In this document: positions 488 through 54,869 of the stretch, piece by piece
Numbering within the stretch: the first letter of the stretch is position 1
How the letters are laid out: each line of letters opens with the position of its first letter
DNA from: Naegleria gruberi
Lineage: Eukaryota
NCBI GenBank assembly: GCA_000004985.1
Contig: GG738885.1
Length of the DNA stretch: 64,000 nt
Strand: one strand, 5' to 3'
Made by a program: the position numbers and the translations under genes
The notes under the pieces: model-generated
What the model was told of the DNA's origin: nothing
Seen by the model: only the letters and a program-made list of their open reading frames with translations
The model's database searches: none

Positions 488-499
488 ATATTTAAGTCC

Positions 500-938: not shown

Positions 939-988
939 NNNNNNNNNNNNNNNNNNNNNNNNNNNNNNNNNNNNNNNNNNNNNNNNNN
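939..988. other. Assembly gap (50 N)
   Basis: Run of n. Confidence 0.99.
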
Positions 989-1415: not shown

Positions 1416-1419
1416 ATTA

Positions 1420-18800: not shown

Positions 18801-21800
18801 TTCCAATACAATCACAACTATTATCAGTTCCACAAGACCCACCATTCATACAAGTTGAACCAGTACATGTTTTAACATTACAATTTGCACCAGTATATGC
18901 AGGATGGCAAGTGTTACAATCAGATCCAGAATAGAAACCATTAGTACTATCACTATAACATGAGCAGGTGTTAATTCCAACACAATCACCATGTCCTGAG
19001 CAAACATGTGAGTTATTCTTGGCAATTGAGTTGCAATTAAACATTTCACACTTGTCTCCGTAATATCCCGCAGCACAGGAACATCCTCCTGTTGAACAGT
19101 TACCGTGCTTTGAGCAAACTCTAAAATCATTGCTTGAATAAAAATCTTCAACGCCATTGTAAACTCCTTTGCAAAGTAAGTTTTCACATTCATCACCAGT
19201 AATCTTTACACTGATGCCATTTGATGAAAAACATTGACACGTGTCAATATCAACACAAACACCTCTTCCTGAGCAAACATTTGGATCCAAAGATGTTTTA
19301 CCAAAGCATGTTTTAACTTGACAATCTTGACCTCCATATCCATAAGAGCATTGACAATGTCCATCTTCAAAACATTTTCCCTTTCCACTGCAAACAGTTG
19401 GATTATCTTGTCTCTTTCCATTGCAACTTGTAACATTACATTTAGATCCAAAGAATCCATTTGAGCATTTACATAAATCATTTCCAATACATTCACCTTT
19501 TCCTGAACAAACTACTGTATCCTCAAGGCTTGAAATTCCAAAGCATTCATAAGTTTGGACTATAACAGCAGTATTCAATGAACAGTCTGCTCCAAAGTAT
19601 CCAGCTGTACAATTACAATTATTTAATGAAGGACAATCACCATGTCCACTACAGACCTGTGATGAATTATATTGAACTCCAGCACATGTGTGGAATTCAC
19701 ATTCAATTCCAAAATATCCGGCATTACATGTACATTTATCCACTTGAGAGCAATTACCACGATTTAAACAAGCGCCATTTAGACCTTTTCCAAAACAAAT
19801 TGGTGATGAACAATCTGCACCTGCCCAATTTTGATTACATGTACAATTGTTTGGAGAGTTACATTGACCATGTGAGGAACAAACTAGTGATGAGTTTGAA
19901 AGAATATTGAAACATTTAGGGAGAGCACACCAATCTCCTCCATACATAGCGTTGCATTGGCAAATACCACCCACACAAGTACCATTAGATGAACATACTG
20001 ATGGGTCATCCTTTGAAATGCCATTACATTTGAGTAGTTGACATTGGTTTCCTTCATAATTAGGAGAACAGGAACATGTATCAACACCAGAACATACCCC
20101 CCAGAACAAACTGATGTTTCGTTTGACAAAATTCCAAAACAGTTTGGATATTGACATTGTGAGCCTCCAAAGTTTGAGTTACATTGACATGAATCCAATC
20201 CAACACATGAACCATGGGAATTGCAAACAGATGAATTGTTTTGTAAAGTTCCATAACAAGTTGTAATTGAACAATTAGATCCATAATAATTTGAAGAGCA
20301 AGTACAAGAGTTGTAATCAACACATGAACCATGCTCAGAACAAACTGATGTTTCGTTTGACAAAATTCCAAAACAATATGGATATTGACATTGTGAGCCT
20401 CCATAGTTTGAGTTACATTGACAGGAGTCCAATCCAACACATGAACCATGGGAATTGCAAACAGATGAATAGTTTTGTAAAGTTCCATAACAAGTTGTAA
20501 TTGAACAATTAGATCCATAATAATTTGAAGAGCATGAGCACGAATTATAATCCATACAAGTACCATGTCCTGAACAAACACTAGAATTGGTTTTTGCTAC
20601 ATAGTAACAATCAAAAATTTCACAGTTAAATCCATAGTAATTTAAGGAGCATGAACAAGTATTAAATGTTGAACATGCACCATGTCCTGAACAAACCTGA
20701 CTTGAATTAGAATAGACTCCATTACATGTTGTTACTGAGCAATTGGCTCCATAATAATTCGATGAGCAGCTACAGGAATTATATGCTGTGCAAGTGCCCT
20801 GATTAGAACAACCAGTAGTAACAGAGTTTGAATATCCATTACATGTCCAAGAAGAACAATTTGAATTAGAATAACCAGTTGCACAGGTGCATGTGTTAAT
20901 GGCTGTGCAGGTACCATGGGAATTGCAAACTGAAATGTCATCAGATCTTTTGGAGTAACAATAGGGTAGATTACAATAACTTCCACCATAATTTGCATCA
21001 CACGTCATGTAAATTTTTCTGAGTTCATCACTTTCTGCAATTAACATCAAGTTGTTATCGCTGGCAAAAGTCAAACCTACAAGTGTATTGAACTTGGTAT
21101 TAGCCAGAGTTTCTCCATCATTATATGTTCCAGCACTATTACCAGCATATGACGTTATTGTACCAGTGTTAGCATTGGCAGTTGCAGGTGTGAAAAGTTT
21201 AAGAGCACCACTCTCAGTGTAGTATACATTACCGTTGTCGTTTACATAAAAGTCTTTGATGGTTACAGAAGAGGTCTTAATTAAGTTAGTTTAACTAGTT
21301 CAATAAAACTTACAGTAAAACGTGTTGCGACTGTTGAAGCAGTGAAAACTTTGAGATAAAACGTTGAACCGATTTGTTGAAAGTAATATATCTTTCCATC
21401 TGACGGTCTTATTGTAAAAGAAACTAAAAGAATTAAATGAAAAGAGAATATCAGATAACTTACATAGTGTTGCAATATTTGCTGATGATGATGCACCATC
21501 AGAAGTGGAGGCACCCCCTCCCAAAACAACTACAATCTTTCCAGTTGATGAGCTGATTTTGTAAATATAGTTGTCTGATGCAAAATAGATCTCACCATTG
21601 TAATATTGTAAATTTTTGGCATTCTAGAATAAAATTGGATATTCATTTCAAAGCAATAGAGAAAAAATACTTACAGTAATAGTACAAGCAGTTGGAGTGT
21701 TTCCATTAACACAATCTGATCCAGAAGCTGCGCCAGCTACTATTGTAACTAAACCCGTGCTCTTTGACAGTAATTTGAGAAAAAATCCAGGTGAATAATT

Positions 21801-24752: not shown

Positions 24753-25898
24753 TTAATCATTCTTTTGATACATGACAGCATATTCATTTTGTTTGACAGC
24801 TTCCCCAACAACCTCAGAATCATTTTCCAATGTTTTAGAGGCAAACCGAATTGCAAGACCTTGCTGTCTAACAGCACAAAGTACAACTTCTCTATCATTG
24901 GTCAAATTATAACTGGCATACTGGAGTGAAAGTCCATTTTGATTAACAGCAGTCAGCACAACCTCTCTATCTTCTAGAAATCTAATTCCAGCTCCATAAA
25001 GCGATTTTCCATTCACCTTAACAGCTTCTATCACAAAATCTCTATCGAGTCTTAGCTGTTGAGCAAACGATAATGCTGTACCATAGTTTCTGATTGCCTC
25101 TAACACAATCTCTCTATCATTTTTCAACTCGTTACTAGCCAGGCCCAGATAAGCTCCATTAATTTGTACTATTTTCAGTATAAATTCTCTATTGTTCCTC
25201 AATGATTCAGTGGCATAATGCAATGCTGTTTCATTTCTAGATTTTTCGTGTTGGTTATTGTCAATTTGGCAGGCCATCAACACAAGCTCAGCATCTCCTC
25301 TTAGATTAGTTGATAAATATTCTAGTGCTCTTCCTCCCGTTTTTCGAATAGACAATTCTGCTATTTCTCTATCATTTCTCAATTCTTCACTAGCAAACTT
25401 CAATGCCTCACTGTTGCCATAAGTGAGAGCACATTTTAATATTTCTTTATCATTTTTCAATTCATCCGAAATGTTTGCATATGTATCAGGATAATATTCC
25501 ATTAATTTCTTTACAAAATATCTATCATTCCACAATCCTAACAAATCGGCATAAACTGATGGATTTTTAGCTTCTTCCAATATAGAATCTAATATAAATC
25601 TCTTATCTTTCACAATGTCTGGCATTGAAACTGCAAAGAAATAATCAAAATTAACTCCATGCTCATTTTCAAATATTTCCATAACTTGTTTTCCTTCAGA
25701 GATAATTTCTTCATCATCATATTCCTCATCAAAATCTTCATCTTCCGAATCATCATCCTCCTGAGCCAAATATAATTTTACAAGATTTTCCAAAGTTTCC
25801 CAAATGTAGAGTTGTTTATCTTTAATGTCTCTCATCTTGTTCATGAGAAAATGTGAAAGTTGGTGATTGTACTGATCTAGAACAATGATTGTTGCCAT
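24753..25898 (-). CDS. DUF4116-repeat protein with an acidic N-terminal region
   Basis: Intronless 381-aa ORF with tandem ~30-aa repeats (..L.NDREVVL.AV.QNG.AL.YAS..L..D.E.V..AV..N) typical of DUF4116. Confidence 0.6.
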   Translation of the reverse strand: MATIIVLDQYNHQLSHFLMNKMRDIKDKQLYIWETLENLVKLYLAQEDDDSEDEDFDEEYDDEEIISEGKQVMEIFENEHGVNFDYFFAVSMPDIVKDKRFILDSILEEAKNPSVYADLLGLWNDRYFVKKLMEYYPDTYANISDELKNDKEILKCALTYGNSEALKFASEELRNDREIAELSIRKTGGRALEYLSTNLRGDAELVLMACQIDNNQHEKSRNETALHYATESLRNNREFILKIVQINGAYLGLASNELKNDREIVLEAIRNYGTALSFAQQLRLDRDFVIEAVKVNGKSLYGAGIRFLEDREVVLTAVNQNGLSLQYASYNLTNDREVVLCAVRQQGLAIRFASKTLENDSEVVGEAVKQNEYAVMYQKND

Positions 25899-25948
25899 TT
25901 TTTTTAATTTTCGTATTTAATTTTCGAATGTTGTACAATCTTGAAGAA

Positions 25949-27123
25949 TCAATGTTGGGTGATTTTAAAAACTTCAATTTCAGCAACCTGAAATGTGCTA
26001 CTTCCAGCCAAATAACTTTTAGCTTCCTCACTTCCATATTGTAATCCAATTGGTAGCTCAAAAGTATTTCCAAAATCAGAACTTGACAATACAGTTGAAA
26101 TGTCAAGGTCAACATCTCCAAATCTAGGTAAATAATTCTTACAAAGACAAATGGCATATTGTTTCTGATTTTGCTTAAAATTGAACTTTTCTAAATGATA
26201 TTTTCCACTAAAATCTTTTACAATTTTAAAAATAAATGCAGATTCATCTGAAACATATTCACCTAATAAGGAATGTGGGGATTTCCAGGATCGAGAGGTA
26301 AAGGCACCAAATATTTGATTGTGTTTTGCTGATTTGATAATTGTCAATGTTGGTCCTTGTAAGTCACATTTCGAATGAAAATGTTTCGAATGGAATCCAT
26401 CTCTAGTTCCTCTATACAATAATTGAGGAATTGCAATGCTGCAAGTATGGGAACATAATTCACTTGACACTGAACAATCACATTCGTTAATAATTATGGA
26501 AGAAACTAATCCAAAATAAACATTTGTTTTGATATTAGTGAGCGAGCATTTGTCGAAAATAATTCCACTCAAATCTTGTGATTGCAGATCAATATTATCA
26601 AATTGAATATTTGCAATATGTTTGTTTGAAAGTCCATTAAAATCAAATAAACATCTGTCAAATTTCAATCCGTTAAAATTTGACAAATCTTTCAAATTTC
26701 GTAAATCTGAATTCTTGATTGTGCAATTATTAAATGAATTATTGGTTGAGTGAAGAATAATTTTAAAATCAATTTCCTCAAATATTGATCCATTGAAATC
26801 GCATTCAATGAATTTACAATTTTGTAAAACTTTTTCCTTTGTAAAGTGAATTTGAATTTTGCATTTTGTAAATTTTGCATTTTCAAATTTAGATTTCTTT
26901 GTAATTGTGTTTGTGAAATTAACATTTTCAAAATTGGAATTTGAGAAACAAGCACTTAAAAAGTTTGAATCTGAAAAGTTGCAACCATTTGAATTACAAT
27001 TAATGAAATATGACTTGGAAAAATCTAATTTTGACAGGTTACTGTTTTGTAATTGCACTTTCTCAAATGTTGTGGAAATAAACTTGGCTTCTTCAAATTT
27101 ACATTGTTCCAAACATGTTTCCA
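25949..27123 (-). CDS. C-terminal half of a pentapeptide-repeat + TLDc-domain protein. It is probably the same gene as 27124..28457, separated by a 1-nt frameshift.
   Basis: ~230 aa of pentapeptide repeats (NFS.SNF....F..) followed by a TLDc domain (LLYRGTRDGF..HFHSKCD..GPTLTIIKS....IFGAFTS..W). Its ATG shares one base with the upstream stop (TAATG), and the upstream ORF ends inside the same pentapeptide-repeat array. Confidence 0.6.
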
Positions 27124-28457
27124 TTAAAAATGCATTAGAAAGTCAGTATTCTTCAAATTGGCGTTTGACAAGTTGCATTCACTCAATTCACAATTTTGGA
27201 AATTAGCACCTGCCAAATCACAATTACTGAAATCACATCCTCTCATCGTGCTTCCTTTAAAATTACACCCTCTTATATTCATTCCACTAAAATTACAACA
27301 ACTCAATTTTGAATTTTCCAAATTTGTTTTCTGAAGAAGGAAATTCCTCATATTCACTCCATTCAAATTCAAACTCAAATCACCTCCAGCAAACACATTT
27401 GAAAGTCTAATCAAGTCAAGTTGTGAATTGAGTAATTGTTTTTCCAAATTTGTCAATTGAAATAATTGACAGGCATCAACGAGTCCATGTTTCATTTCTT
27501 TCAAATCAATAATTCCAAATCTTAACCAATCCAAAATGTGTTTGAATACGACTGGATCACAATTAATGAAATAAACATCATCTTTGAATGATGTACAAGG
27601 TGTTTGATATAGCGGATGTTGACCTGTCAACATTTTCTTGAATAAATTGTCAGGTTCTCTCTCGTTATGAAGTAAATCACCTAAGGAGACTGTCAAGATT
27701 GTTCCACCAACATTTAAAGGAATTGGTTTGTTGCTGGATTCGAATATTTCTCTTTGCAATTTTTCCTTTTCAAACTTTTCAATTAGTTTTTGTAAATCTT
27801 GATCTTTTGATTCAAATTCTTGAACTAGTTCAGCTCTTTTAACTTGAAATTCACTATTTGTCTGATTGATCATCTGTTCATGTTCTGTCTTGAATTTATT
27901 CATCAAATCTTGATATTTCCTTTCCAATCCAATTTTCCTTTTTTGAAATTCTTCTTCCAAATTAACTTTCAATTCCTCAACTTGTTTATAAGCATCCAAC
28001 AGTGGACAATACCTTTCCTGATGATCTTTCAATTGTCCTCTCTGCACTCCACCCTTACACATCGAACATTGCACTTTCAATTCATCCAACTTGTTCAAAA
28101 TATATTTGGGAACTGCCAATGAATTCTGTTTCAAATCATTTCCTCGACAAAGTGGACATTTATCAACTTTATCGATAATGCACTTGGAACAGAACATTTG
28201 ACCACATTCAGAATGCATGATTGGATCAATGAATGGATATTTACAGATGGAACATGTTAAATCTTGATCAATATTGTGTAAATCGAGATAAAGTCATGGT
28301 TTGGTTGATTAGTTTCGGAATATTCAATTCTTGAAAATTCATCGTAATTGATTTGTTTTTCAGGGTTGGTAGATGAAATGGTTGGATTGTTGTAGTTCGA
28401 ATCTTCATAAAACGTGCGAGAAAGTTTATCATTTGACAGTTGTGGTTGTTCAGACAT
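27124..28457 (-). CDS. RING/zinc-finger + coiled-coil + BTB/POZ (T1/KCTD-type) + pentapeptide repeats: the N-terminal part of a KCTD9-like/TLDc fusion protein
   Basis: ORF 27124..28218 contains the Cys/His cluster CSICKYPF..HSECGQMFCSKC..CPLCRG, a long coiled coil, the BTB T1 signature PIPLNVGGTILTVSLGDLL..DPVVFKHILDWLRFG, then pentapeptide repeats up to the stop. An upstream in-phase-shifted ORF 28257..28457 (MSEQPQLS..) probably supplies the true N-terminus via another 1-nt frameshift near 28230-28260. Confidence 0.55.
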
Positions 28458-32901: not shown

Positions 32902-34407
32902 TTAAATGATTATTCTCTTCTTAATGGCTTCCTTCTTTGCCAACTTTTCGAATTGAATTGTTTGTTTGAAACGATGATGAGTGTCAAGCATCAAAATGCA
33001 AATTTCAGATTCGACATCATCAAATAATGAATCAATCAAATGTTCGTTTTGAGCAGTGGCAAATAAATCCAAGTGATTCTTGACCTTATCGGTCATGTAT
33101 TTTGGCAGGTTGACAGATTTTTCACCTCTGACATCTAAATAATCTGTGTAGATTTCGAACGAAATTTCGTACTTCTTCTTTTCCACATCAAGTAAATCCT
33201 TTTCACTAAATTTCTTCTTTTTCTTCTTGTGATCTGTTGAATCAGAACCTGCATCACTACTTATTTCAGATGAAAGCTCGAACAAATATTCTTGAATGTC
33301 AAAACTCCTTTCACACAAAATTTTGTAATCTGAAATCTTTTCCAAAATTTGGAAGTTCTCAATGCTCAACTCAATCTGACAATGTTTTCTAAATAATTCT
33401 CTAGTAATTGGATGTTCCATTGTATCCATTAATAGAAATGCTCTCACTTGATTGAGTTTTCTATTAGTAGATTCATCCTTCTTGACTGATGCCACAAATG
33501 AAGTGACAATGACAGGAACTACCAATATAAGTGAAATCAAAATGACTACTAGTGAAATAGTAACCATAATGACAGTTACACTCTGACTATCCTTCTTGGT
33601 ATTATCCACATAGGAGACCATGATTTGAAATTCATCCTTATATCCATCAAGATAGGTTTGATATTGTTGTGAATTTAACAAAATCATGGCAGTTGAATAG
33701 TTTCCATTCATTGCTAGTCTGATAGCTCTTTGTTCGAGAAAGATGGCTTTGGAGGTTTCTAATTCTGCATTAGGTTTTCCCTTTAGTGCCACATTTCTAA
33801 TAGATTCTGGAACGAGTGCTTTAAAGTAAGCAGTATTGTTACTGAACTTTGACAGATAGGTATTGTACTTGGTTTGATATAATTGAGTAAGTGTTAAATT
33901 GTAATTGGAAAAGACTGAAGATCTGGCAGCTGCAATAGTTGTTTCTCTATAATAGTTAGTGTCAGAATCCAAATTATCCCACACATTGTTATATTCGTAT
34001 TGTAACACGAACGCAGCAATGATTAGACCAGCCAAAATGAGGAATGAAGTTAAATTAATAACTAGAGAACTCAAACTGAAAATTCTCAATGTTGAAAGCT
34101 GTAAAGTTCCTAAGCAAGTATTACAAGTGAGAATGACATCTGAATCTTTGCTCTTAACTGAAGAAGAACGTGGTGTTCTTATTGATGTAGTAATGGACTT
34201 GGCAGGTCCTTCTTCAGCAATATGTGAATTGGTAGTGGATGAATCATATTTTACACTTGCAAACTTTTTAGGAGGTTGCATTGGACTTGAAATTGGTGGA
34301 CTAGTTGCCAAATCGCTCGGAGAAGAACACTCTGCAGGAGAATGAAGGTTGACTTGACTGGTGCTCAACTCTTTGAGTTCTTGCAGTGAGCCACTGTTGG
34401 TGGTCAT
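32902..34407 (-). CDS. Receptor-like RGS protein: N-terminal tail, TM1, ~200-aa extracellular sensor-like domain, TM2, then a cytoplasmic RGS domain
   Basis: Two strong hydrophobic helices (LVINLTSFLILAGLIIAAFVL and VTVIMVTISLVVILISLILVVPVIV). The RGS signatures are LLMDTMEHPITRELFRKHCQIELSIENFQILEKISDYK and EIYTDYLDVRGEKSVNL..ICILMLDTHHRFKQT. Paralog of 53181..54869. Confidence 0.65.
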   Translation of the reverse strand: MTTNSGSLQELKELSTSQVNLHSPAECSSPSDLATSPPISSPMQPPKKFASVKYDSSTTNSHIAEEGPAKSITTSIRTPRSSSVKSKDSDVILTCNTCLGTLQLSTLRIFSLSSLVINLTSFLILAGLIIAAFVLQYEYNNVWDNLDSDTNYYRETTIAAARSSVFSNYNLTLTQLYQTKYNTYLSKFSNNTAYFKALVPESIRNVALKGKPNAELETSKAIFLEQRAIRLAMNGNYSTAMILLNSQQYQTYLDGYKDEFQIMVSYVDNTKKDSQSVTVIMVTISLVVILISLILVVPVIVTSFVASVKKDESTNRKLNQVRAFLLMDTMEHPITRELFRKHCQIELSIENFQILEKISDYKILCERSFDIQEYLFELSSEISSDAGSDSTDHKKKKKKFSEKDLLDVEKKKYEISFEIYTDYLDVRGEKSVNLPKYMTDKVKNHLDLFATAQNEHLIDSLFDDVESEICILMLDTHHRFKQTIQFEKLAKKEAIKKRIII

Positions 34408-38566: not shown

Positions 38567-39013
38567 ATGAGCATTCAGTGTAGACTTCAGAAAGGTCAAC
38601 AAGATTCGAATATTATTCAAGATGACACATTAATGCAAATTTTTAACCAAACTAAACATAACAAAAAGAAGATTATCAAACAGAACGAACAACAATTCGT
38701 ATGGAAACGATTCAATACATTATTCATTGATTATTTTCAAGAACCAAAAACAAAACGAAAGACATCTGACATTAGCAAACAAGAAATTTTAAAAGTATTA
38801 CATCTTACTCAAAGACAGGCATGTAAACAACTTGGATGTACATTATCCACAATGAAAAGAAGATTTTACGAATTGAAATCTGATCTTGGTTTGAAATGTT
38901 GGCCACAGAATTATAATGAAATTTGTAACTTGCCAATATTTCCAAAAATTTATCCATTGAGTTTGAGTTTTATCTTGAATGCTTCAAATGACGAAACGAG
39001 TAAATCTGAATGA
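38567..39013 (+). CDS. Minimal RWP-RK domain protein (RKD/MID-like), paralog 1
   Basis: ISKQEILKVLHLTQRQACKQLGCTLSTMKRRFYELKSDLGLKCWPQ matches the RWP-RK consensus (L..yF.....AAK.LGV..T.LKR.CR..GI.RWP.RK), with a divergent K[CS]WPQ core. First ATG at 38567 (track start 38489 is TTG). Confidence 0.6.
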   Translation: MSIQCRLQKGQQDSNIIQDDTLMQIFNQTKHNKKKIIKQNEQQFVWKRFNTLFIDYFQEPKTKRKTSDISKQEILKVLHLTQRQACKQLGCTLSTMKRRFYELKSDLGLKCWPQNYNEICNLPIFPKIYPLSLSFILNASNDETSKSE

Positions 39014-39825
39014 ATGATTCAGGATTATCAACTTGACCAAAAATCAGTCACATGCCAATCCATCAAAAAAAACCAACTTGCTAACAATAATCATCAATAA
39101 AATGTAAATAAACACAATCTTAACTCTTTCCAAAATATAAAAATTTAATTTTTTTCATTAATAAATCCAAAAAACAACAATTAAGCACACAACCAATCTC
39201 ATAGACAAAAATACAGAACTATTTGACTCACTATTTAAAATTGGACATGCAAGTTTGGTTGTTCCACTAAAACTATATAAAATTAAAGAACCTCTTTCTG
39301 ATTCACCAACAAATTTCAAAGTTGGTTTTTCAGGACAGTAAAAGAAGGAGTGTCAACTGTATGTGTATTGATCTTGCTAATAATTCATCCACTAATAATT
39401 GGAAGAATTGGAGAAACTCATACCCTGGACTCTTCATTATTTCCAATAAGAAACTCTTCGAGTATCATCAGACGTAAAATTGACTTGTTTTTTTAGTTTG
39501 AAATCTGTTGATTAAGTGAGCGATATTTGGCCCTAGTTCCAACTTAGTACGAAATCAAATCACTATCATTTCGAATAGGGTAATTTCGAATAACCTATAG
39601 GAAATGTGATTCATTGCATCTATGACTATCATGTAAATCTCTCTATTACTTAAAAATACAACAAAATTAGCATAATAGATTTTGTATTGTGGTTGATGGC
39701 ATTTCAAAGCACATCAGTTTGACATTTGGATGTAATTGTTACCTCTCTGTAGATGTCATTGCACCTAGTTGCAATAACTGTTCTGAATATTCTGAATATT
39801 TTTATGAATAATAAAAACAAACAAA

Positions 39826-40236
39826 ATGAGCTCTGTAAATAATTCCACCATGATTAGAGACACTTTGACAATGCAAATATTTGGCTCAGCAAAATCCACG
39901 AAAAAGGGCAAAATTCAATCAGCTTCTGACTGTCAATTTGTTTGGAAGAGAGTTGACACAAACTTTGGTGTATTTTTCTTGGAGAAAGATCTCGAATTTA
40001 GGTCAAAAAGAAAGACAACTGACATTAGCAAACAAGAGCTCATTAAAGTTTTACATCTTTCTCAAAGACAAGCTGCCAAATCATTGAATTGTACATTATC
40101 AACATTGAAGAGAAGATTTTATAATTTGAAAGAAGAATTTGGAATGTCAACATGGCCAAAGACATTTAAGGAAATAAGTCACCTGCCAATTTATCAGAAA
40201 ATGTATCCAATGTCTTTGAATTTCATCCTCAATTAA
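39826..40236 (+). CDS. Minimal RWP-RK domain protein, paralog 2
   Basis: ISKQELIKVLHLSQRQAAKSLNCTLSTLKRRFYNLKEEFGMSTWPK..HLPIYQKMYPMSLNFILN. Confidence 0.6.
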   Translation: MSSVNNSTMIRDTLTMQIFGSAKSTKKGKIQSASDCQFVWKRVDTNFGVFFLEKDLEFRSKRKTTDISKQELIKVLHLSQRQAAKSLNCTLSTLKRRFYNLKEEFGMSTWPKTFKEISHLPIYQKMYPMSLNFILN

Positions 40237-41069
40237 CTGAAAATATTCCAACATACATGCTTGCAGTAACTTATCATGTGCAAGAGATGAAAATTATCAA
40301 CCTACGTTGACAAGTAGACGAAACTTTATTTGCCAGAAATTGGACAAACTTTAGATTTAAAATTCCATGAAATGTAATTAAATGTAATTAATGAATAAAT
40401 TGTTGGACGAACGAAACAAATGTATTGAACACATGCCCTTGTTAGTTGTTTTCTCACTAACTATTCGAAAAGCGTCAACCAAGATATATTGAGCTCCATA
40501 AATTTCACCTCTTTGATACATCAATACTAATACAGAGATTATATTTACTATTAGTGGATCTATCCTCCTCAATGTCTAGTTCATGTAGTATTGTTGAATA
40601 TTCATTAGCACAGATAGTTGTCCTGTTCTTCACTACTGAGTAGAATGCAAGATTAAAGTGTTTGTACATGTACTAATGGTATTTCGTCTATCGTTATTGG
40701 AAACATGAAGTTTAAACATAAATCATGAAATAGGCAAGAGGAATTACATACCTCCCTTTCCAATCTCCTTTTACATCATGAGAGGCTTTTATAAAAACCT
40801 CCTTTCTAATTCGATTTTGATTCGAACAACTTGTTAGAAACTGATTTGGAGTAAACTTGCAATTTTGTATGAAATTTGGCAAAGGCCGAGGATTGAGCCA
40901 ACAAAGCTACTGGAATATTGTTGTTCCTGCTGTTCTCAAAATGTCAACATCTTTACCTAGTTGACATTTAAGGAAAAACGACAAGAGACATATTTTTAAT
41001 AAGGAAACTATTATGACCAGAAGAAAGAATGGAAAGTTATCATTCTGTTCATTTAACAACCATTAAAAA

Positions 41070-41546
41070 ATGAACAGACAAGCTACCGGCATTACCAAAC
41101 AATCCAAACGAAACAATAGTTCACTTTCGAATAACCGATTCCATACAACGCATGTTTCGTCATCCACTTTTCCCAACACCCAAACAACCTCTCCACTCTC
41201 CAACACCATTTCCTCCTCCCAAATCATCTGGAAACAAGTCAACTCTCCCTCTGGAAAATACTTTAAAGAAAGCGCGCCAAAAGATTACCGAAAGTCCAAA
41301 ACCATTTCACAAGACGAAATGATTCGTGTATTGCATTTATCCCAAATTCACGCCTCAAAAATCCTGAATTGCAGTTTATCGACATTGAAGAGAAGATTCT
41401 ACGAATTGAAAAACAATTTTGGGCTCAAGTCGTGGCCTCAATATTTTAGAGAGGTGAGACATTTGCCGATTTTTAAGCAAATGTATCCGATGAGTTTGAC
41501 ATTTATTTTGAATGTTGATGAGGAAAAGGTGGTGAATGAGGAATAG
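41070..41546 (+). CDS. Minimal RWP-RK domain protein, paralog 3
   Basis: ISQDEMIRVLHLSQIHASKILNCSLSTLKRRFYELKNNFGLKSWPQYFREVRHLPIFKQMYPMSLTFILN. Confidence 0.6.
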   Translation: MNRQATGITKQSKRNNSSLSNNRFHTTHVSSSTFPNTQTTSPLSNTISSSQIIWKQVNSPSGKYFKESAPKDYRKSKTISQDEMIRVLHLSQIHASKILNCSLSTLKRRFYELKNNFGLKSWPQYFREVRHLPIFKQMYPMSLTFILNVDEEKVVNEE

Positions 41547-41972
41547 TTGAGATTAGGTTTAGAATAGAGATAGTTCTGTAATTTTTGAAGAATATGGAAG
41601 ATAGATGAGAGAATATTTGTAAAATAATTTATTAATAAATCAATTGAAAACTGTAGATTTACAATTGTTGTGTTGCCAAATAATTCAAATAAAGCAATGA
41701 AGGTTTCGGAAAGTCAACCGAAACTATGTGAGAAAGTCCATCAATTAAGAAAACTCTTTACAAAACAAATATTGAGATGGAATGCATTCCCTACCCATTC
41801 TGCAAATCAAGGTTACGAAAACACAATATTCTGCAATCAACATCCATTCAAAGATCTGAGAATTTCTTAAAAGGAAAGATTCTCTGATTGACGGCTGCCA
41901 ACAGTCACAGAAATCAATAAAAGCAATTAAATTGGGTCCATCTCTCGCTTTTTAAAATCCAACCATCAGTTT

Positions 41973-43486
41973 TTGATATCTCATTCAATAACATTAAAAA
42001 AAATGGTCAACCATCTCATAATCTTGTCACTTGCCATTCTACTATTCATTTCCTCAATTTCCTGCCACATGGAAATGAAACTTCCCTCCCCACGTAAAAC
42101 ACTTCCAACAGGTGGCACCGATTACGATATGAGTTCTCCCCTAGGAGCTCAGAAACCATTTCCATGTGGTGGCAAAACCTCACTCTCCTCAATTACCACC
42201 TGGAATGCAGGTGAAACTGTTACAATCAATATCGAAGGTGGTGCCCCTCATGGTGGTGGACATTGTCAGTTTGCAATCTCTCCTCGAAGTGATCAGAAGA
42301 GGTGGATTGTTTTGGCTGATAATTTGGGAAGATGTCCATTGGATAAGAATTATTCATTCAAATTGCCAGGTGAGGTTCCAAGTGGAGATTATGTGTTTGC
42401 TTGGACTTGGATTAATGCTGTTGGAAATAGAGAGTAAGTAGTAATGGAATAGTTTGGTTTCTAATATTTTTAAGATATTACATGAATTGTGCTGATGTGA
42501 GAATTAACAATGGAGGAACTAAATTTGAAGGTAAACAACTCCTAGTAGCCAACATTCCAGATCCAAATCTTTCAGGATCATCCGTTTATTTCATTGGAGA
42601 AATTGGTGAATTCCCAAATAATCCAACTTTTGCAACTGACAAATTTCCACAAAGACCTGCTCTGACATTGACAGCAAGTGGAATTCAAGGAGGTGGAGGC
42701 GGAGGAGGCACAAATCCAACCAACCCAACCAATCCTACAAATCCTGGAATGAACAGCACTTGTAATTATTTCCTTGTTTCAGGAGATACCTTAAATGCAA
42801 TTGCTTCCAGATTTGGAACTACCTTATCTGTTATATATTCATTGAATCCAACAATTACTGATCCTACCAAGTTGCAAGTTGGTGATAAAGTTGTGTATCC
42901 ATGTTCTGGTCAATCTAGCGGTGGTTCTGGAAATACAGGTGGTGGCAGTTCAGGAAATGGAAATGGCTCTGGAACTACCAATACTTTTGGCTGTGTCTAC
43001 TCATGGACAATCATCTCAAAATTCAATGATACTAAATTAGGATTCATTGGAAAATTAAATGTCCAAACAAGTCTCGCACAGACAAACTGGAATATTGCAT
43101 GGACATTCCAAAAAGGAGGAATTTCTGCATTCAAATTGAGTAGCCAAACTTTGACATCTTCTGCACTTTCTCAGGTTGCTATTAAGGGAGAAACTCAAAT
43201 TGAAGCAAATAAGGTCATGTCCATTACGGTTTTCGGGGTTGGCGGAGTTTCAGATTCAGAAGCATTGTTTGTGAATAATGAGAGATGTACCAAGTCATCG
43301 AGTGCTGATTTTGAACAAACTAGTAATTCAGCTCCGGTGTTGGATTGCAAGTCAACTCCGACAAATTGTAAAGATTCATGTTTGGAACAGTATAATCAAT
43401 ATTGTGCTAGCTCTGGAATTGTAATTTGGAGGGGAATGAGTGCAATTATGACTGGATTGTTGATGATTTATTTGTTTGTATTGTAA
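41973..43486 (+). CDS. Secreted, probably GPI-anchored AA11-type lytic polysaccharide monooxygenase, followed by a LysM domain and a CBM2-like module
   Basis: Signal peptide ..SSISC, then mature N-terminal His (HMEMKLPSPR). HGGGHCQF and WTWINAVGNRE|YYMNCADV are spliced across a 41-nt GTAAGT..AG intron at 42434-42474, matching the AA11 hallmarks HGGG.CQ and WFNRIGNREMYMNCA. A Gly/TNP linker follows, then a LysM-like segment (CNYFLVSGDTLNAIASRFGTTLSVIYSLNPTI..LQVGDKVVYPC), a G/S linker, a W-rich ~100-aa module, and a hydrophobic C-terminus after ASSG. Confidence 0.7.
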
Positions 43487-43774
43487 ATATAAAGATTCTT
43501 ATTGGAATAGTTTAGAATAGTCATGTTTCTTTTATGAAATGGAGATTTTTAGGTGAAGAGATGGCATGGAAAAGGAAATAGTTGAAATTTAACCAAAGTG
43601 TCATATTAATACTGAAATTGTTTAATTATGAATAATAGTTGACAGATTGACATTTAAGGATGCATCAAGGAATGTCATGAATTTTAAAAAAGGTATTTAA
43701 AATATTATACGAAACCTTACCTCACTTTTTAATGTTAGACAGAACACATTTCAAAGAAACCTAAACGAAAAACA

Positions 43775-44230
43775 ATGAACAGAAACCAAGCCACTTCAAC
43801 ACTTCCAAATACAACTTATCAGAAAGCAGACGAAACTTTAGATTCCCAAGTTATGATGAATGTCTTTAAAAAGAACAATAAACAAAATACACCCACCATG
43901 CAACAATACAACCAAATAATTTGGAAACGAATTGATACTCCAGTTGGTTCCTTTTTCAAAGAAGCTCCACTTTCGAATAGATCCAAACGAAAGACACAAC
44001 AAATCAGCAAAAAAGAAATGCTACAAGTGTTGCATCTTCCTCAAAATCAAGCAAGTAAATTACTCGATTGCAGTTTATCCACATTGAAGAGAAGATTCTA
44101 CGAATTGAAAGACGATTTTGGACTAAAGTCTTGGCCTCAATGTTTTGCAGAAGTGAGGCATTTGCCAATATTTCGTCAAATTTATCCAATGAGTTTAGAT
44201 TTCATATTGAATACCCATGAAAAAATGTAG
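43775..44230 (+). CDS. Minimal RWP-RK domain protein, paralog 4
   Basis: ISKKEMLQVLHLPQNQASKLLDCSLSTLKRRFYELKDDFGLKSWPQCFAEVRHLPIFRQIYPMSLDFILN. Confidence 0.6.
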   Translation: MNRNQATSTLPNTTYQKADETLDSQVMMNVFKKNNKQNTPTMQQYNQIIWKRIDTPVGSFFKEAPLSNRSKRKTQQISKKEMLQVLHLPQNQASKLLDCSLSTLKRRFYELKDDFGLKSWPQCFAEVRHLPIFRQIYPMSLDFILNTHEKM

Positions 44231-44426
44231 AATTATTGTGGAAATTACCAAAATTAAATCTTTCCTTTTCTAGCTTTTAAAGTCATACTATTTGCACCTC
44301 AAAAGTTGGAATGTCTATCAAAATCATAACATTACCTATACCATGTTTGAAGCCAAATACAAACTTTTATTTAACACTTTTGGTTTCAAATGTACATGGA
44401 GTTTGAGCTCAAACTATACGAAATAA

Positions 44427-49791: not shown

Positions 49792-51666
49792 ATGGTTTCA
49801 ACTAGCAAGAAGAAGAACTCTTCTTCAAACACTTCCCTACCAAATAGTCCAGCCATTTCCATCACTTCAGTTGAAAGCAATGACATGAACAATTCACCAT
49901 CTTCTCTTCCTTCCTCTCCTTCGAATTCTTCCAATTTTTTCTCTTCTTCACCGAACAGCAAATCACCTGGTAGAAGACTTCACTTTTTTCCCGCCAAATC
50001 TCCTAAAAAAAAATCTACAACTTCCATCTCTACTGATTCACTTCATGCTGCAAGTAATACTAATCATGGTTGTGATGCGATAGGTGATTATACCTTTTCG
50101 TATGAGGCTGTGCTAGATGATGAGGAGACGAGACAGTGTTTATTGGAATATATGAGGACGATTAGATGTGAGGAAAGTTTGTTGTTTTTAGATCAGGTGA
50201 ATTCATTTCATAGAAAAAGATCAACTGCGAATAGGTGGAGTATGATACAGTCAATATTTGAACAATTCTTTTGTGAGCACTCGAAATATGAATTGAATTT
50301 ACCACAGAGAGTTAAGGATATGATGATTCACACCTATTCGGACGTTGTTGAGGAAATTGCTCATAGGAAGAGAATGAATCTTGATGAGGATACTAATAGT
50401 AGTAGTAATTCCAGATCATCATTGGAACAAGCAAATCAGCCACCACCACAACAACAAGTAAAACAAAACAAGAACAAGAATAATAATGAAAAGAGTAATA
50501 ATAATAATAGAAATTCTAAGGATGATTTGGATGTTTCACTAGGTTCTTTGGATTACATAGATTTGAGTGATTGTGAGGAGGCCCTAAAGAAGGCAGAGAG
50601 TTACATCCTCATCAACTTGAAAGAATATGTCTTTCCAAAGTTTGTCGGCTCTGATCACTTTCAAGGATTCATCTCAACAAAGAGCAAGACCTTTATTAAT
50701 ACTATTGGTACGGTGAAGGCCTTATCTCATTCGTGCTTTGTTGAATCATTGATGGACATGAGGAGGTGTGAAATTAATGTAGATCAAGTGAGAATGATCA
50801 AGAAACATGTCTTTGATACCAGATATTGGGATTGTATCTATCAGAAGGAAACAAGCTATGGTTTTATTTCTTCAAAAAAGTACATTCTTGGTGAGGACGA
50901 TCACGCTAAGGGTGTTTACTTTGCCAAGTGTGAAGTGATCTTTCCTTACTCTGCTGACCAAATTATGAATATCATGACCAATACAAAGAATAGAATTGAA
51001 CACGACAAGAATTTGGAAGATATCAAGAGAATTGGTTATAGAAACAAGTCTGGAACTACAAATTTTAATCCAAATCTGGTACATTCCAGTGATGAAGATG
51101 AGGATACACTCTCTTCCACTAGCTCTGCAATGTCTGACCTTCACGATACTGCATCTTCCAGATCTCATACATCAAATCATTCACATCAACAAACAAATCA
51201 TCATTCGCCAATATCAGGAAAAACCAAATTGGCCACCACATTAACACATGAACGATACAAGCTTGGTTGGCCAATCAAGTCTAGATATTATTTGCTCGCT
51301 CAGAGTATGGTACATGATACAACAGATAACATGTACATTATTGCAAAAAAGTCTTGCAGAATTCCAAATTATGATCCAGATGAAGGAACAAATATTGAAG
51401 CCATCAATATTGGTTGTTGGATGTTTCAACCTTTACTAGATGAAAATCAAAAGCCATGTTGTAAATACATTCAATTTGTTGGAACAGATTTGAGAGGAAA
51501 CATTCCAACATTTATCATTGAAAAGATTGTTAGAAAGAGAACTAGTAACTTTTACAAATCCACCATGAAAATGATCAAAGCTTGCGAAGAAGAGTCCACA
51601 ACAAGACCATTCGATTCAAGTGGTTATTTCGATACTCTAGATGAGAATGGCAGCATGGCTCTCTAA
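49792..51666 (+). CDS. RGS-domain + START (StAR-related lipid-transfer) domain protein
   Basis: An N-terminal S-rich region precedes an RGS-like segment (FSYEAVLDDEETRQCLLEYMRTIRCEESLLFLDQVNSF..MIQSIFEQFF). The C-terminal ~220 aa carry a START pattern (..GVYFAKCEVIFPYSADQIMNIMTNTKNRIEHD..RYKLGWPIKSRYYLLAQSMVHDTTDNMYIIAKKS..KYIQFVGTDLRGNIPTFIIEKIV). Confidence 0.55.
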   Translation: MVSTSKKKNSSSNTSLPNSPAISITSVESNDMNNSPSSLPSSPSNSSNFFSSSPNSKSPGRRLHFFPAKSPKKKSTTSISTDSLHAASNTNHGCDAIGDYTFSYEAVLDDEETRQCLLEYMRTIRCEESLLFLDQVNSFHRKRSTANRWSMIQSIFEQFFCEHSKYELNLPQRVKDMMIHTYSDVVEEIAHRKRMNLDEDTNSSSNSRSSLEQANQPPPQQQVKQNKNKNNNEKSNNNNRNSKDDLDVSLGSLDYIDLSDCEEALKKAESYILINLKEYVFPKFVGSDHFQGFISTKSKTFINTIGTVKALSHSCFVESLMDMRRCEINVDQVRMIKKHVFDTRYWDCIYQKETSYGFISSKKYILGEDDHAKGVYFAKCEVIFPYSADQIMNIMTNTKNRIEHDKNLEDIKRIGYRNKSGTTNFNPNLVHSSDEDEDTLSSTSSAMSDLHDTASSRSHTSNHSHQQTNHHSPISGKTKLATTLTHERYKLGWPIKSRYYLLAQSMVHDTTDNMYIIAKKSCRIPNYDPDEGTNIEAINIGCWMFQPLLDENQKPCCKYIQFVGTDLRGNIPTFIIEKIVRKRTSNFYKSTMKMIKACEEESTTRPFDSSGYFDTLDENGSMAL

Positions 51667-53180: not shown

Positions 53181-54869
53181 TTATTTATTGGAAGGAACTT
53201 TGAGAGAATCAAGATTAAGACCTGATTTACTGTCTTGAGCCTTCTTACTCTTTCTCACAGTTGGAAGTTTAATCTTGAGTGATTCCTTCTTTGTCTTTTT
53301 CTGGAATTCAACTGTTTGCTTGAATCGGTGATGGGTGTCAAGCATCAAAATACAAACTTCTCCTTCCACTGGATCGAAAATCATATCACTAAGATGTTCA
53401 TTCTCTCCTGATGCAAACAAATCTAATTGAGTTTTGACCTTGTCAGCTGCATGTTTGTTGATGTTGACAGATTTGTCACCATTGACATCTAGGAAATCAG
53501 TAAAGATTTCAAAAGCAACTTCGTACTTTTTCTTTTCAATTTCAATTAAATCTCTTTCAGTATAACCCTTTTTCTTCTTCTTTTTACCTTGGCTGTCACT
53601 ACTCATTGAAGTTGATGTTGAACCAGTGTCAGAAATGGCATCTGAAAAGGCGACAGTTAGCTCTTGATCATCATACAAGAATACTTGAATTTCAAATGAT
53701 TTCTCACATAAAATCTTGTAATCTGTAATCTTGTCAAGTAACAAGTAATTTTCCAAGCTCATTTCTTGTTTACAATATTCTTTGAATAATTTTCTAAGTT
53801 TGTTATCTCTCATGGTGTCCATAAGCATGTAGGCGTTTGCTTTCTTCAATCTCTTATTGTTGGCATTGTCAGAATTCATGGAAAAGGCAAGTGACATGAT
53901 GACTACTGGAATAACAATGACAATTGACACACAGACAATAATTAATTGCAAAGTGGTCATGGTAGTTGAGAAATCTCTATAGCTAACCTCCAAAGCCTTA
54001 AAATAATCAACAGAAGGCTTGAATTCCACTTCATACCAAGGTAAATAATCTTGATAGGTGTCAGAGCCAATTAAATTCATGGCAGCTGTAAAGTTTCCAG
54101 CTTTGACCATACTAATAGCTTGTCTCTCAACACTCATAGCCTTCACTGTCTTCATATCATAAATTGTTATATTATGTTTGACAGAATATCTCAATTCATT
54201 TGGCATGTATGCCAACATGTTATTAATTTCAGTATTGAACTTGGTTGAGTAATTTCCATAGAGATTGGCATAGCCAAGAGCAACTGTCTTGTTGTTATTG
54301 GCATAGACTGCTGAACGACATGTGTAAACCATCATGTCTCTATAATAGGAAGTGTCAAGATCCATATTTGAAATTGATGTCAATAAATTATTGCTGCCAA
54401 CGTAGCCAACAATAATGACAGTGAGTAATGCGATGAAACCAAGTAGATTAGCAGTTAAACTAGTCAAATTGACAAGCTTGAAGGATGACAGCTTGAGGGT
54501 AGTTCCACAACACATTCTGATGGCAAATAAAGAATTTGACGAGTGACTTGTCCTAGATCCAGTTCCAGATTTCTTATGGGAAGCAACAGAACTCTTCTTT
54601 TTAGACTCTTTAATGATGGTAGAAGCTGCTGGCTCTGTTGCAAAATTTGCTTTTGGTTTTGGACTGGTTGGAGTTGTTGGCGTTTGACATTTTTCCTTGA
54701 CAAGATGATCCATAGAATGACTCGAGCTAGAAAAGGATGAAGAAGCATCACCTGCTGTAAAATTTGTTGGAGTCAAGTAATAATCACAATTATGAACGTC
54801 TATTCCATTCAATTCTTCGATTGCTTTTTGCATGGAACTGTCAGCTGACACTGAAGTTGATTCTTGCAT
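53181..54869 (-). CDS. Receptor-like RGS protein, paralog 2 (TM1, sensor-like ectodomain, TM2, RGS)
   Basis: Same architecture as 32902..34407: TM helices LLGFIALLTVIIVGYV and LQLIIVCVSIVIVIPVVIMSLAF, and RGS blocks YMLMDTMRDNKLRKLFKEYCKQEMSLENYLLLDKITDYK..EIFTDFLDVNGDKSVNI..VCILMLDTHHRFKQT. Confidence 0.65.
   Translation of the reverse strand: MQESTSVSADSSMQKAIEELNGIDVHNCDYYLTPTNFTAGDASSSFSSSSHSMDHLVKEKCQTPTTPTSPKPKANFATEPAASTIIKESKKKSSVASHKKSGTGSRTSHSSNSLFAIRMCCGTTLKLSSFKLVNLTSLTANLLGFIALLTVIIVGYVGSNNLLTSISNMDLDTSYYRDMMVYTCRSAVYANNNKTVALGYANLYGNYSTKFNTEINNMLAYMPNELRYSVKHNITIYDMKTVKAMSVERQAISMVKAGNFTAAMNLIGSDTYQDYLPWYEVEFKPSVDYFKALEVSYRDFSTTMTTLQLIIVCVSIVIVIPVVIMSLAFSMNSDNANNKRLKKANAYMLMDTMRDNKLRKLFKEYCKQEMSLENYLLLDKITDYKILCEKSFEIQVFLYDDQELTVAFSDAISDTGSTSTSMSSDSQGKKKKKKGYTERDLIEIEKKKYEVAFEIFTDFLDVNGDKSVNINKHAADKVKTQLDLFASGENEHLSDMIFDPVEGEVCILMLDTHHRFKQTVEFQKKTKKESLKIKLPTVRKSKKAQDSKSGLNLDSLKVPSNK

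What the first reader, a model, noticed from the sequence alone, without database searches (positions are those of the whole stretch)
38567..44230. Tandem array of four minimal RWP-RK (MID/RKD-like) transcription-factor genes, all on the + strand, in 5.7 kb
Each gene encodes only 136-158 aa: a short variable N-terminus and a single RWP-RK-type DNA-binding domain (..VLHL.Q..A.K.L.C[ST]LST[LM]KRRFY.LK..FG[LM]K[SC]WP[QK]..HLPI[FY].[KQ][IM]YP[ML]SL.FILN). The canonical RWP is replaced by K/S/T-WP-Q, but the upstream LKR and helix are intact. Domain-only RWP-RK proteins are the class that includes Chlamydomonas/Volvox MID, the mating-type minus-dominance factor, and plant RKDs, the egg-cell and gametophyte regulators. 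A subtelomeric, rapidly diversifying tandem cluster of such genes is therefore a plausible sex, mating-type or developmental-switch locus in this protist. The four copies differ mostly in the N-terminal ~70 aa, consistent with diversifying regulators sharing one DNA-binding module.
Basis: partly seen in the sequence, partly recalled or inferred. Interest (0 to 1): 0.7.

Follow-up and report, generated by a model that had tools for sequence, protein, structure and literature searches.

The report
Four small Naegleria RWP-RK regulator genes
Four neighbouring small genes in the reference genome of the amoeba Naegleria gruberi encode divergent RWP-RK-type DNA-binding proteins from a family already known to be greatly expanded in Naegleria, and nothing here marks them as a mating-type locus.

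Summary
Four intact + strand ORFs of 148, 136, 158 and 151 aa share a conserved 70-aa C-terminal domain and no fifth copy lies in the window. The array is not contiguous, because an AA11 LPMO-LysM gene sits between copies 3 and 4.

The window is the Naegleria gruberi NEG-M reference, a heterolobosean rather than an amoebozoan. Three of the four ORFs are deposited gene models: NAEGRDRAFT_70552, 70553 and 70555.

The RWP-RK call is supported, but for a divergent subfamily:
- All four hit Pfam PF02042 (E 1e-6 to 5e-4) but score just below the curated cut-off.
- A profile of the family reaches cut-off-passing RWP-RK proteins, including a plant NLP-type protein.
- The AlphaFold model is a helix-turn-helix closest to LuxR/GerE-type domains.
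- W and P are kept, R is C/T/S, and RK is lost.
- A 3-residue insertion and a C-terminal HLPIF..IYPMSL.FILN extension are shared with other heteroloboseans.

A published census lists RWP-RK as the third-largest Naegleria transcription-factor family, with 39 genes in N. gruberi.

The paralogs are old, with saturated dS and domain dN/dS of 0.15-0.34. A second strain carries near-identical alleles.

The MID/RKD and mating-type reading has no support beyond small size. Verdict: an ordinary old tandem cluster of a known lineage-specific expansion, of low interest.

The parts
38567..39013 (+). g1, a 148-aa RWP-RK-type protein. It is NAEGRDRAFT_70552 (EFC41433.1, D2VNM6). The conserved domain is at 38771-38980.
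   Evidence: ORF. Exact match to the N. gruberi record. Pfam RWP-RK E 2.8e-5, 24.4 bits.
39826..40236 (+). g2, a 136-aa RWP-RK-type protein. It is NAEGRDRAFT_70553 (EFC41434.1, D2VNM7). The conserved domain is at 40024-40233.
   Evidence: ORF. Exact match. Pfam RWP-RK E 9.8e-7, 29.0 bits against a cut-off of 29.3.
41070..41546 (+). g3, a 158-aa RWP-RK-type protein. This exact sequence is not in the protein collection, so the deposited model may differ or be missing. The conserved domain is at 41304-41513.
   Evidence: ORF. Pfam RWP-RK E 5.1e-4, 20.3 bits. Exact-sequence look-up negative.
43775..44230 (+). g4, a 151-aa RWP-RK-type protein. It is NAEGRDRAFT_70555 (EFC41436.1, D2VNM9). The conserved domain is at 44003-44212.
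   Evidence: ORF. Exact match. Pfam RWP-RK E 3.5e-6, 27.3 bits. AF2 model with beta-hairpin 50-63 and helices 79-85, 90-96 and 101-115.
39022..39069 (+). Possible relic of a degenerate copy just 3' of g1. It translates to GLST*PK..ISHMPIHQK, which resembles g2 residues 106-125, with a stop at the W codon.
   Evidence: tblastn E 0.077. This is marginal and could be chance.
40938..40970 (.). Perfect 10-nt inverted repeat AAATGTCAAC-N-GTTGACATTT, about 100-130 nt upstream of g3. Related TGACATT copies lie upstream of g2 (39720) and g4 (43648, 43671). It is a candidate shared cis-element.
   Evidence: Five TGACATT sites fall in the 4 x 300 nt upstream regions, against about 0.8 expected from the window-wide density. 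The motif was chosen post hoc and is not found upstream of the paralogs in L001 and L004.

Best explanation
The four genes are old tandem paralogs within the heterolobosean expansion of RWP-RK transcription factors, located in the Naegleria gruberi NEG-M reference genome.

Each protein has four parts:
- a fast-evolving, largely disordered N-terminus;
- a short conserved beta-hairpin (Q-[FI]-[VI]-W-K-..);
- a basic linker (..KRK..);
- an extended RWP-RK domain, made of a three-helix helix-turn-helix followed by a lineage-specific extension, HLPIF..IYPMSL.FILN.

The most likely mode of action is sequence-specific DNA binding through the third helix (S-T-L-K-R-R-F-Y). That helix is almost invariant across the subfamily, so the paralogs probably recognise similar core sites. 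They would then differ in regulation or partners through their N-termini.

The cluster arose by local duplication. The phylogeny groups g1 with g2 and g3 with g4. The AA11 LPMO-LysM gene was inserted or retained between g3 and g4.

Shown here: gene identity, family membership, fold, purifying selection, age of the duplicates and the organism. Inferred: DNA binding, nuclear function and shared binding specificity. Unknown: which cellular programme the genes control.
For: Identity: g1, g2 and g4 are exact matches to N. gruberi predicted proteins on a 362,555-bp scaffold.

Family membership:
- All four hit Pfam RWP-RK at E 1e-6 to 5e-4.
- A 12-sequence family profile searched against 1.84e9 proteins found 237 hits. 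These include cut-off-passing RWP-RK proteins (P0048, P0049, P0051, P0053, P0054, P0057, P0068) and a Vaccinium protein with three RWP-RK domains plus PB1, at E 3e-12.

Fold:
- In the AF2 model the helix-turn-helix region has pLDDT of about 90.
- The Foldseek top hits are the same class but not significant.

Selection:
- Domain dN/dS is 0.15-0.34 with dS of 0.8 to above 2.
- The g4 allele in another strain has 4 non-synonymous changes, all N-terminal, and none in the domain.

Expansion:
- Published counts are 39 RWP-RK genes in N. gruberi and 26-27 in N. fowleri, obtained with E<0.01 thresholds that these four pass.
- N. fowleri entries in that table carry the same VLHLSQ..AC..L.CS.STLKRRF..LK.ELGM.KWP motif.

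Local duplication:
- The NJ tree recovers g1-g4 as one clade, with g1+g2 at 80% bootstrap.
- Clusters of 2-3 copies also occur on distant relatives' contigs L008, L020 and L023.
Against: - All four score below Pfam's gathering cut-off (20.3-29.0 against 29.3 bits). The match stops at profile position 43 of 49, and the eponymous RK is absent.
- No solved RWP-RK structure was found by sequence.
- There are no expression, localisation or DNA-binding data for these genes. A literature search by locus tag found nothing.
- Monophyly of g1-g4 has only 28% bootstrap support.
Confidence: 0.85

Rival explanations
1. The cluster is a MID/RKD-like sex, mating-type or developmental-switch locus. On this reading, minimal RWP-RK proteins specify a gamete type or life-stage identity, as MID does in volvocine algae.
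For: - The proteins are small and single-domain like MID.
- N. gruberi's sexual cycle is unobserved, so a locus of this kind is not excluded.
Against: - N. gruberi has 39 RWP-RK genes. Small size is common in the subfamily and long members also exist.
- The closest relatives are all heterolobosean and share a lineage-specific insertion and extension. No specific link to MID or RKD was seen.
- A second strain carries g2 and g4 alleles at 98.5% and 97.4% aa identity and 97.8% nt identity including flanks, like the dispersed paralogs. There is no sign of presence/absence or deep haplotype divergence.
- MID works through an N-terminal dimerisation domain that binds VSR1 and is not conserved outside volvocines.
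Confidence: 0.05
2. The four short proteins are modulators rather than autonomous activators. Lacking long effector regions, they would pair with or compete against the longer RWP-RK paralogs at shared DNA sites. This would resemble dominant-negative or specificity-switching partners, as in the MID-VSR1 logic.
For: - The predicted recognition helix is nearly invariant across short and long subfamily members, so they should compete for similar sites.
- The N-termini are short and mostly disordered, with pLDDT below 50 for residues 12-43.
- A precedent exists in MID-VSR1 heterodimers.
Against: - There are no interaction data.
- The conserved beta-hairpin and C-terminal extension have no assigned role.
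- Short acidic or Q/N-rich tails could themselves act as activation regions.
- This reading refines the best explanation rather than excluding it.
Confidence: 0.15
3. The ORFs are decaying or untranscribed duplicates, that is, pseudogenes in a subtelomeric gene graveyard.
For: - The location is subtelomeric.
- A possible degenerate fragment lies just 3' of g1.
- No expression data were found.
Against: - All four ORFs are intact despite saturated synonymous divergence.
- Domain dN/dS is 0.15-0.34.
- The domain is identical in a second strain, while synonymous and N-terminal changes have accumulated.
Confidence: 0.03

Closest known systems
Naegleria/heterolobosean RWP-RK transcription-factor expansion (Herman et al. 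2021, BMC Biol 19:142, Table S3)
   Same: - The same organism group and the same Pfam family.
- The same signature, VLHL.Q..A...L.CS.STLKRRF..LK...G...WP.
- The four genes pass that study's detection thresholds (E<0.01).
- Neighbouring family members also occur in N. fowleri (g10375 and g10377).
   Different: - That census gives only counts for N. gruberi in the text held here.
- I could not confirm that these four locus tags are among the 39.
- The tandem cluster, the conserved beta-hairpin and the FILN extension are not described there.
Chlamydomonas/Volvox MID and plant RKD proteins (domain-only RWP-RK factors)
   Same: - Small proteins whose only recognisable domain is a C-terminal RWP-RK-type helix-turn-helix.
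- Presumed transcription regulators.
   Different: - No RK, and R replaced by C/T/S.
- A 3-residue insertion before WP and an extra conserved C-terminal extension.
- The nearest relatives are heterolobosean paralogs, not MID or RKD.
- No evidence of sex-limited inheritance or gamete-specific expression.
- MID's VSR1-binding N-terminal domain is not conserved outside volvocines.
Canonical RWP-RK/NLP proteins (NIN, NLP7, NIT2) and oomycete RWP-RK proteins
   Same: - Homologous helix-turn-helix core: the family profile hits a plant protein with three RWP-RK domains plus PB1 at E 3e-12.
- As in oomycetes, W and P are the conserved positions while R1 and K6 vary (PMC7399023).
   Different: - No PB1, GAF-like or other accessory domain.
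- The RK dipeptide is missing.
- Scores fall below Pfam's gathering cut-off.
Bacterial LuxR/GerE/NarL-type helix-turn-helix effector domains
   Different: - There is no sequence relationship above noise (13-23% identity).
- The resemblance is at fold level only and does not indicate family membership.

Membership tests
RWP-RK domain family (Pfam PF02042) | Match to the curated profile at or above its gathering score (29.3 bits) | tested here: not met
   g1 scores 24.4 bits, g2 29.0, g3 20.3 and g4 27.3, with E-values of 2.8e-5, 9.8e-7, 5.1e-4 and 3.5e-6. All four match profile positions 1/2-43 of 49. The hits are significant but sub-threshold.
RWP-RK domain family (Pfam PF02042) | Demonstrable homology to proteins that do pass the curated threshold | tested here: met
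   The family profile hits P0048, P0049, P0051, P0053, P0054, P0057 and P0068 at E 1e-15 to 5e-11, and these score 30.9-43.1 bits on PF02042. It also hits P0060, a Vaccinium darrowii protein with three RWP-RK domains plus PB1 (130 bits), at E 3e-12. Precomputed Pfam labels on close relatives P0001, P0003-P0006 and P0008 are PF02042.
RWP-RK domain family (Pfam PF02042) | Conserved RWPxRK motif | tested here: not met
   W and P are invariant. R is replaced by C, T, S and S in g1-g4, while several close paralogs keep R (DRWPQ, ERWPN). The x-R-K positions read QNY, KTF, QYF and QCF, so RK is absent from the whole subfamily. The literature notes that R1 and K6 are the less conserved positions outside plants.
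RWP-RK domain family (Pfam PF02042) | Helix-turn-helix fold of the domain | tested here: met
RWP-RK domain family (Pfam PF02042) | Sequence-specific DNA binding and transcriptional regulation | not testable with these tools
   No experimental data were found for these locus tags.
MID / RKD subgroup (domain-only RWP-RK regulators of gamete or gametophyte identity) | Short protein with RWP-RK as the only domain | tested here: met
   The proteins are 136-158 aa and have no other Pfam domain at E<0.01.
MID / RKD subgroup (domain-only RWP-RK regulators of gamete or gametophyte identity) | Phylogenetic placement with MID/RKD rather than with other RWP-RK clades | tested here: inconclusive
   - The roughly 47 closest representatives form a subfamily that shares a lineage-specific insertion and the FILN extension. 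Every member of it that could be named is heterolobosean.
- In the NJ tree of 44 of those representatives, g1-g4 cluster with N. gruberi paralog P0021.
- No MID or RKD sequence was available to include, so an explicit joint tree was not built. The evidence leans against placement with MID/RKD.
MID / RKD subgroup (domain-only RWP-RK regulators of gamete or gametophyte identity) | Residence in a mating-type-specific, hemizygous or highly diverged haplotype region | tested here: inconclusive
   Only one other strain, from a metagenome (sample ERR1078381), was available. It carries g2 and g4 alleles at 98.5% and 97.4% aa identity, with g4 at 97.8% nt identity including flanks. This is similar to the dispersed paralogs P0011, P0021 and P0005. 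Mating types are undefined in Naegleria.
MID / RKD subgroup (domain-only RWP-RK regulators of gamete or gametophyte identity) | Gametogenesis-, starvation- or stage-specific expression | not testable with these tools
   No transcriptome data are accessible here. The only Naegleria RWP-RK with reported regulation, N. fowleri g4821, is a canonical RWPYRR type from a different subfamily.

The most novel reading that the evidence does not exclude
The cluster could be part of a cryptic sexual or life-stage switch in Naegleria. Short RWP-RK proteins would re-programme longer RWP-RK paralogs by pairing or competing with them at shared sites, following MID-VSR1 logic. They might also autoregulate through the palindromic TGACATT elements found 100-130 nt upstream of g2-g4.
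Probability: 0.05. Interest if true: 0.8.

Novelty: already known. Interest (0 to 1): 0.2.

Why it matters
As it stands, the finding matters little. The genes are in the N. gruberi reference annotation, and the RWP-RK expansion in Naegleria has been published.

It would matter if any of these short factors proved to control a Naegleria life-cycle decision such as encystment, flagellate differentiation or the never-observed sexual cycle. That would extend the link between RWP-RK factors and cell identity far outside the green lineage.

Three modest by-products could help anyone who takes up functional work on this family:
- a clear definition of the extended heterolobosean domain (beta-hairpin, basic linker, helix-turn-helix and FILN extension);
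- the observation that family growth proceeds by local duplication;
- a candidate upstream palindrome.

Tried and rejected
- Exact-protein look-ups of window genes in the contig index and of P0007 found nothing. N. gruberi scaffolds are apparently not indexed there, so no synteny comparison with other Naegleria genomes was possible.
- The afdb50 fold library was unavailable. Foldseek against the PDB gave no hit below E 0.1. A sequence search of the PDB found nothing.
- I searched the Herman et al. supplements for the four locus tags, accessions and domain strings. Only N. fowleri genes are listed per gene in the held text.
- A literature search by locus tag returned 0 papers. The Acrasis genome paper does not mention RWP-RK.
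- A shared upstream motif as evidence of co-regulation or autoregulation did not hold up. TGACATT is enriched upstream of g2-g4 but absent upstream of g1 and of the paralogs in L001 and L004. I keep it only as a lead.
- The metagenome scan found only distant relatives at 33-68% identity. It gave no orthologous cluster.
- I considered and rejected positive diversifying selection. dS is saturated and dN/dS is below 1 everywhere it could be measured.
- I considered and rejected pseudogenes. The ORFs are intact and the domain is under constraint.


Full report
**Observation**

The four ORFs exist as described:
- g1: 38567-39013, 148 aa
- g2: 39826-40236, 136 aa
- g3: 41070-41546, 158 aa
- g4: 43775-44230, 151 aa

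All lie on the + strand and start at an ATG. They find each other by tblastn at E 1e-33 to 1e-44, and nothing else in the 64-kb window resembles them. The protein alignment has 47 invariant columns, nearly all in the C-terminal half. Pairwise identity is 60-77% over the 70-aa domain and 21-48% over the N-terminal part. At DNA level the domain is a four-copy repeat of 230 nt at 63-74% identity, with spacings of 1253, 1280 and 2699 nt. The intergenic DNA is not alignable.

The larger third spacing is due to an unrelated gene between g3 and g4. It runs from 42003 to 43486 and has one 41-nt GT..AG intron at 42434-42474. It encodes a signal peptide, an N-terminal-His AA11 lytic polysaccharide monooxygenase domain (PDB 7p3u at E 4e-32, 4mah at E 8e-18) and a LysM domain. 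The description 'tandem array' therefore needs the qualifier 'interrupted'.

**Organism and annotation status**

An exact-sequence look-up shows three matches to N. gruberi predicted proteins, all on one 362,555-bp scaffold:
- g1 is NAEGRDRAFT_70552 (EFC41433.1).
- g2 is NAEGRDRAFT_70553 (EFC41434.1).
- g4 is NAEGRDRAFT_70555 (EFC41436.1).

All three are labelled 'predicted protein'. The g3 sequence as read here is not in the collection.

The window is therefore the Naegleria gruberi NEG-M reference. The window starts with (CCCAAA)n telomeric arrays, so the cluster lies about 37-43 kb from a scaffold end. The first 6 kb contains N gaps and two roughly 90% identical telomere and subtelomere blocks.

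**Is it RWP-RK?**

All four proteins have Pfam PF02042 as their best hit, at E 9.8e-7 to 5.1e-4. Every score (20.3-29.0 bits) is below the gathering cut-off of 29.3, and the alignment ends at profile position 43 of 49, at the WP.

I tested homology independently. A profile of the four proteins plus eight relatives (A2) was searched against 1.84 billion representative proteins and returned 237 hits at E<=1e-3.
- About 47 hits cover the whole domain, including the C-terminal extension.
- The next tier (E 1e-15 to 1e-6) matches only the helix-turn-helix part.
- That second tier includes proteins that pass Pfam's cut-off: P0048, P0049, P0051, P0053, P0054, P0057 and P0068, at 30.9-43.1 bits.
- It also includes P0060, a Vaccinium darrowii protein with three RWP-RK domains and a PB1 domain, hit at E 3e-12.

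Membership of the RWP-RK superfamily is therefore well supported.

The literal motif is not conserved. W and P are invariant, but R is C, T, S and S in g1-g4, although several paralogs retain R. The RK dipeptide is absent from the whole subfamily. A published survey of oomycete RWP-RKs makes the same point: outside plants, W and P are the conserved positions and R1 and K6 vary (PMC7399023).

**Structure**

An AlphaFold2 model of g4 built on the 12-sequence alignment has a mean pLDDT of 69. Its features are:
- a disordered N-terminus (residues 12-43, pLDDT below 50);
- a confident beta-hairpin at 50-63, which is the conserved Q-I-I-W-K-R-..-F-F-K-E element;
- three helices at 79-85, 90-96 and 101-115, with pLDDT of about 90;
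- three short helices covering the HLPIF..IYPMSL.FILN extension, with pLDDT of 66-78.

**Family context**

Every relative that carries a name is heterolobosean:
- N. gruberi: P0005, P0007, P0011, P0021, P0155
- N. fowleri: P0012 and P0018, identified with Nfowleri986_g10377 and g10375 by sequence, and P0015
- N. lovaniensis
- Willaertia magna
- Acrasis kona
- Sawyeria marylandensis

The subfamily is marked by a 3-residue insertion between the third helix and WP (LK..FG...WP) and by the FILN extension. A sister heterolobosean subfamily (STLKRRFYELGIGRWP...SLSFILN) shares the FILN motif.

Subfamily members range from 69 to 742 aa with the domain at the C-terminal end, so 'minimal' architecture is not a distinguishing trait.

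The literature already records the expansion. Herman et al. 2021 (PMC8296547, Table S3) list RWP-RK as the third-largest DNA-binding-domain family in Naegleria, with 39 genes in N. gruberi and 26-27 in N. fowleri. They used HMMER E<0.01 thresholds, which all four proteins pass. They also report one RWP-RK gene up-regulated in mouse-passaged N. fowleri. That gene, g4821, is a canonical RWPYRR type from another subfamily. I could not confirm from the held text that these four locus tags are among the 39.

**Age and selection**

Nei-Gojobori estimates between the four copies give saturated synonymous divergence, with pS of 0.49-0.86 and dS from 0.8 to undefined. Domain dN/dS is 0.15-0.34. The N-terminal part gives about 0.4-0.5 where it can be computed. 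These are old duplicates under purifying selection with relaxed N-termini, not a rapidly diversifying array.

An NJ tree of 44 full-domain members recovers g1-g4 as one clade. Bootstrap support is 28% for the clade, 80% for g1+g2 and 37% for g3+g4. The sister is the dispersed N. gruberi paralog P0021. This fits local duplication but is weakly resolved on 114 columns.

Distant relatives on metagenome contigs also occur in local groups: L020 has three copies in 11 kb, L023 two in 5 kb and L008 two in 1.6 kb. Gene numbers g10375 and g10377 suggest the same in N. fowleri. Tandem duplication looks like the ordinary growth mode of this family.

**Strain comparison as a partial test of the mating-type idea**

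One metagenome sample (ERR1078381) contains a close N. gruberi relative:
- A 547-nt contig is 97.8% identical to window 43721-44264, including the flanks. It has 4 synonymous and 4 non-synonymous differences in g4, all of the non-synonymous ones N-terminal.
- The g2 counterpart, P0152, differs at 2 of 136 residues.
- Dispersed paralogs in the same sample differ to a similar degree (P0021/P0157 and P0011/P0158), or not at all (P0005).

There is thus no sign of presence/absence or exceptional divergence at this cluster. One strain of unknown mating behaviour cannot settle the question.

**Comparison with MID and RKD**

MID acts by forming heterodimers with the long RWP-RK factor VSR1. The interaction uses MID's N-terminal domain and a dimerisation domain in VSR1, neither of which is detectably conserved outside volvocines (PMC10629530).

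The Naegleria proteins share with MID only small size and the superfamily domain. The idea that they work like MID, as short partners or competitors of long paralogs at shared sites, is not excluded and is listed as a rival mechanism. Membership of a MID/RKD clade, or of a sex locus, is unsupported.

**Leads**

- Upstream of g2, g3 and g4, at -100 to -130, there are TGACATT elements, some forming inverted repeats. The clearest is the perfect AAATGTCAAC-N-GTTGACATTT at 40938-40970. A related arrangement, TTGACATTTAAGG...AAGGAATGTCA, lies at 43647-43677. Five sites fall in 1.2 kb of upstream sequence, against about 0.8 expected.
- The half-site loosely recalls the plant nitrate-responsive element bound by NLPs. 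That comparison is from my memory and was not tested.
- The motif was picked post hoc. It is missing upstream of g1 and of two paralogs on other contigs.
- A 48-nt stretch just 3' of g1 translates to a stop-containing remnant resembling g2 residues 106-125, at E 0.077.

**Verdict**

The biological interpretation as a sex or mating-type locus is unsupported. The genes and the family expansion are already in the public record, so novelty and interest are low.

Noticed in passing
window 42003-43486 (+), intron 42434-42474: Between g3 and g4 lies a secreted AA11-type lytic polysaccharide monooxygenase. After a signal peptide its mature N-terminus is His-Met-Glu-Met. It is fused to a LysM domain, a Gly/Ser/Thr/Pro-rich linker and a C-terminal hydrophobic tail. 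This is a chitin-active enzyme in an amoeba. Its best PDB relatives are fungal AA11s (7p3u at E 4e-32, 4mah at E 8e-18).
   Followed up: partly
window 1-1901: (CCCAAA)n telomeric arrays occur twice, at 1-480 and 989-1370. Each is followed by a subtelomeric block about 90% identical to the other, and the two are separated by a 50-N gap. Two chromosome ends or haplotypes appear to have been scaffolded head to tail. The repeat implies a TTTGGG-type telomere for N. gruberi.
   Followed up: partly
window 6856-20157 (-): A single 4433-aa ORF carries teneurin-type EGF repeats, REJ and PKD domains, making it a giant polycystin/REJ-like surface protein close to the chromosome end.
   Followed up: no
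window 24753-28218 (-): Three adjacent genes encode repeat proteins. One has eight DUF4116 repeats, one has pentapeptide repeats plus TLDc, and one has BTB plus pentapeptide repeats.
   Followed up: no
window 32902-34407 (-), 49792-51666 (+), 53181-54869 (-): Three RGS-domain proteins lie within 22 kb around the RWP-RK cluster. This is another locally multiplied signalling family.
   Followed up: no
window 39022-39069 (+): A short stop-containing stretch, GLST*PK..ISHMPIHQK, lies immediately 3' of g1 and resembles the WP...HLPIYQK part of g2. It may be a relic of an unequal crossover. The match is marginal, at E 0.077.
   Followed up: partly
window 39719-39727, 40938-40970, 43647-43677: TGACATT elements and inverted repeats occur 100-130 nt upstream of g2, g3 and g4, with 5 sites against about 0.8 expected. 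They are absent upstream of g1 and of paralogs on other contigs.
   Followed up: partly
L020 (JAESGV010001049.1), L023, L008: Distantly related RWP-RK-type genes on contigs of the JAESGV01 assembly also occur as 2-3 copies within 1.6-11 kb. Local clustering of this family is therefore not unique to N. gruberi.
   Followed up: partly
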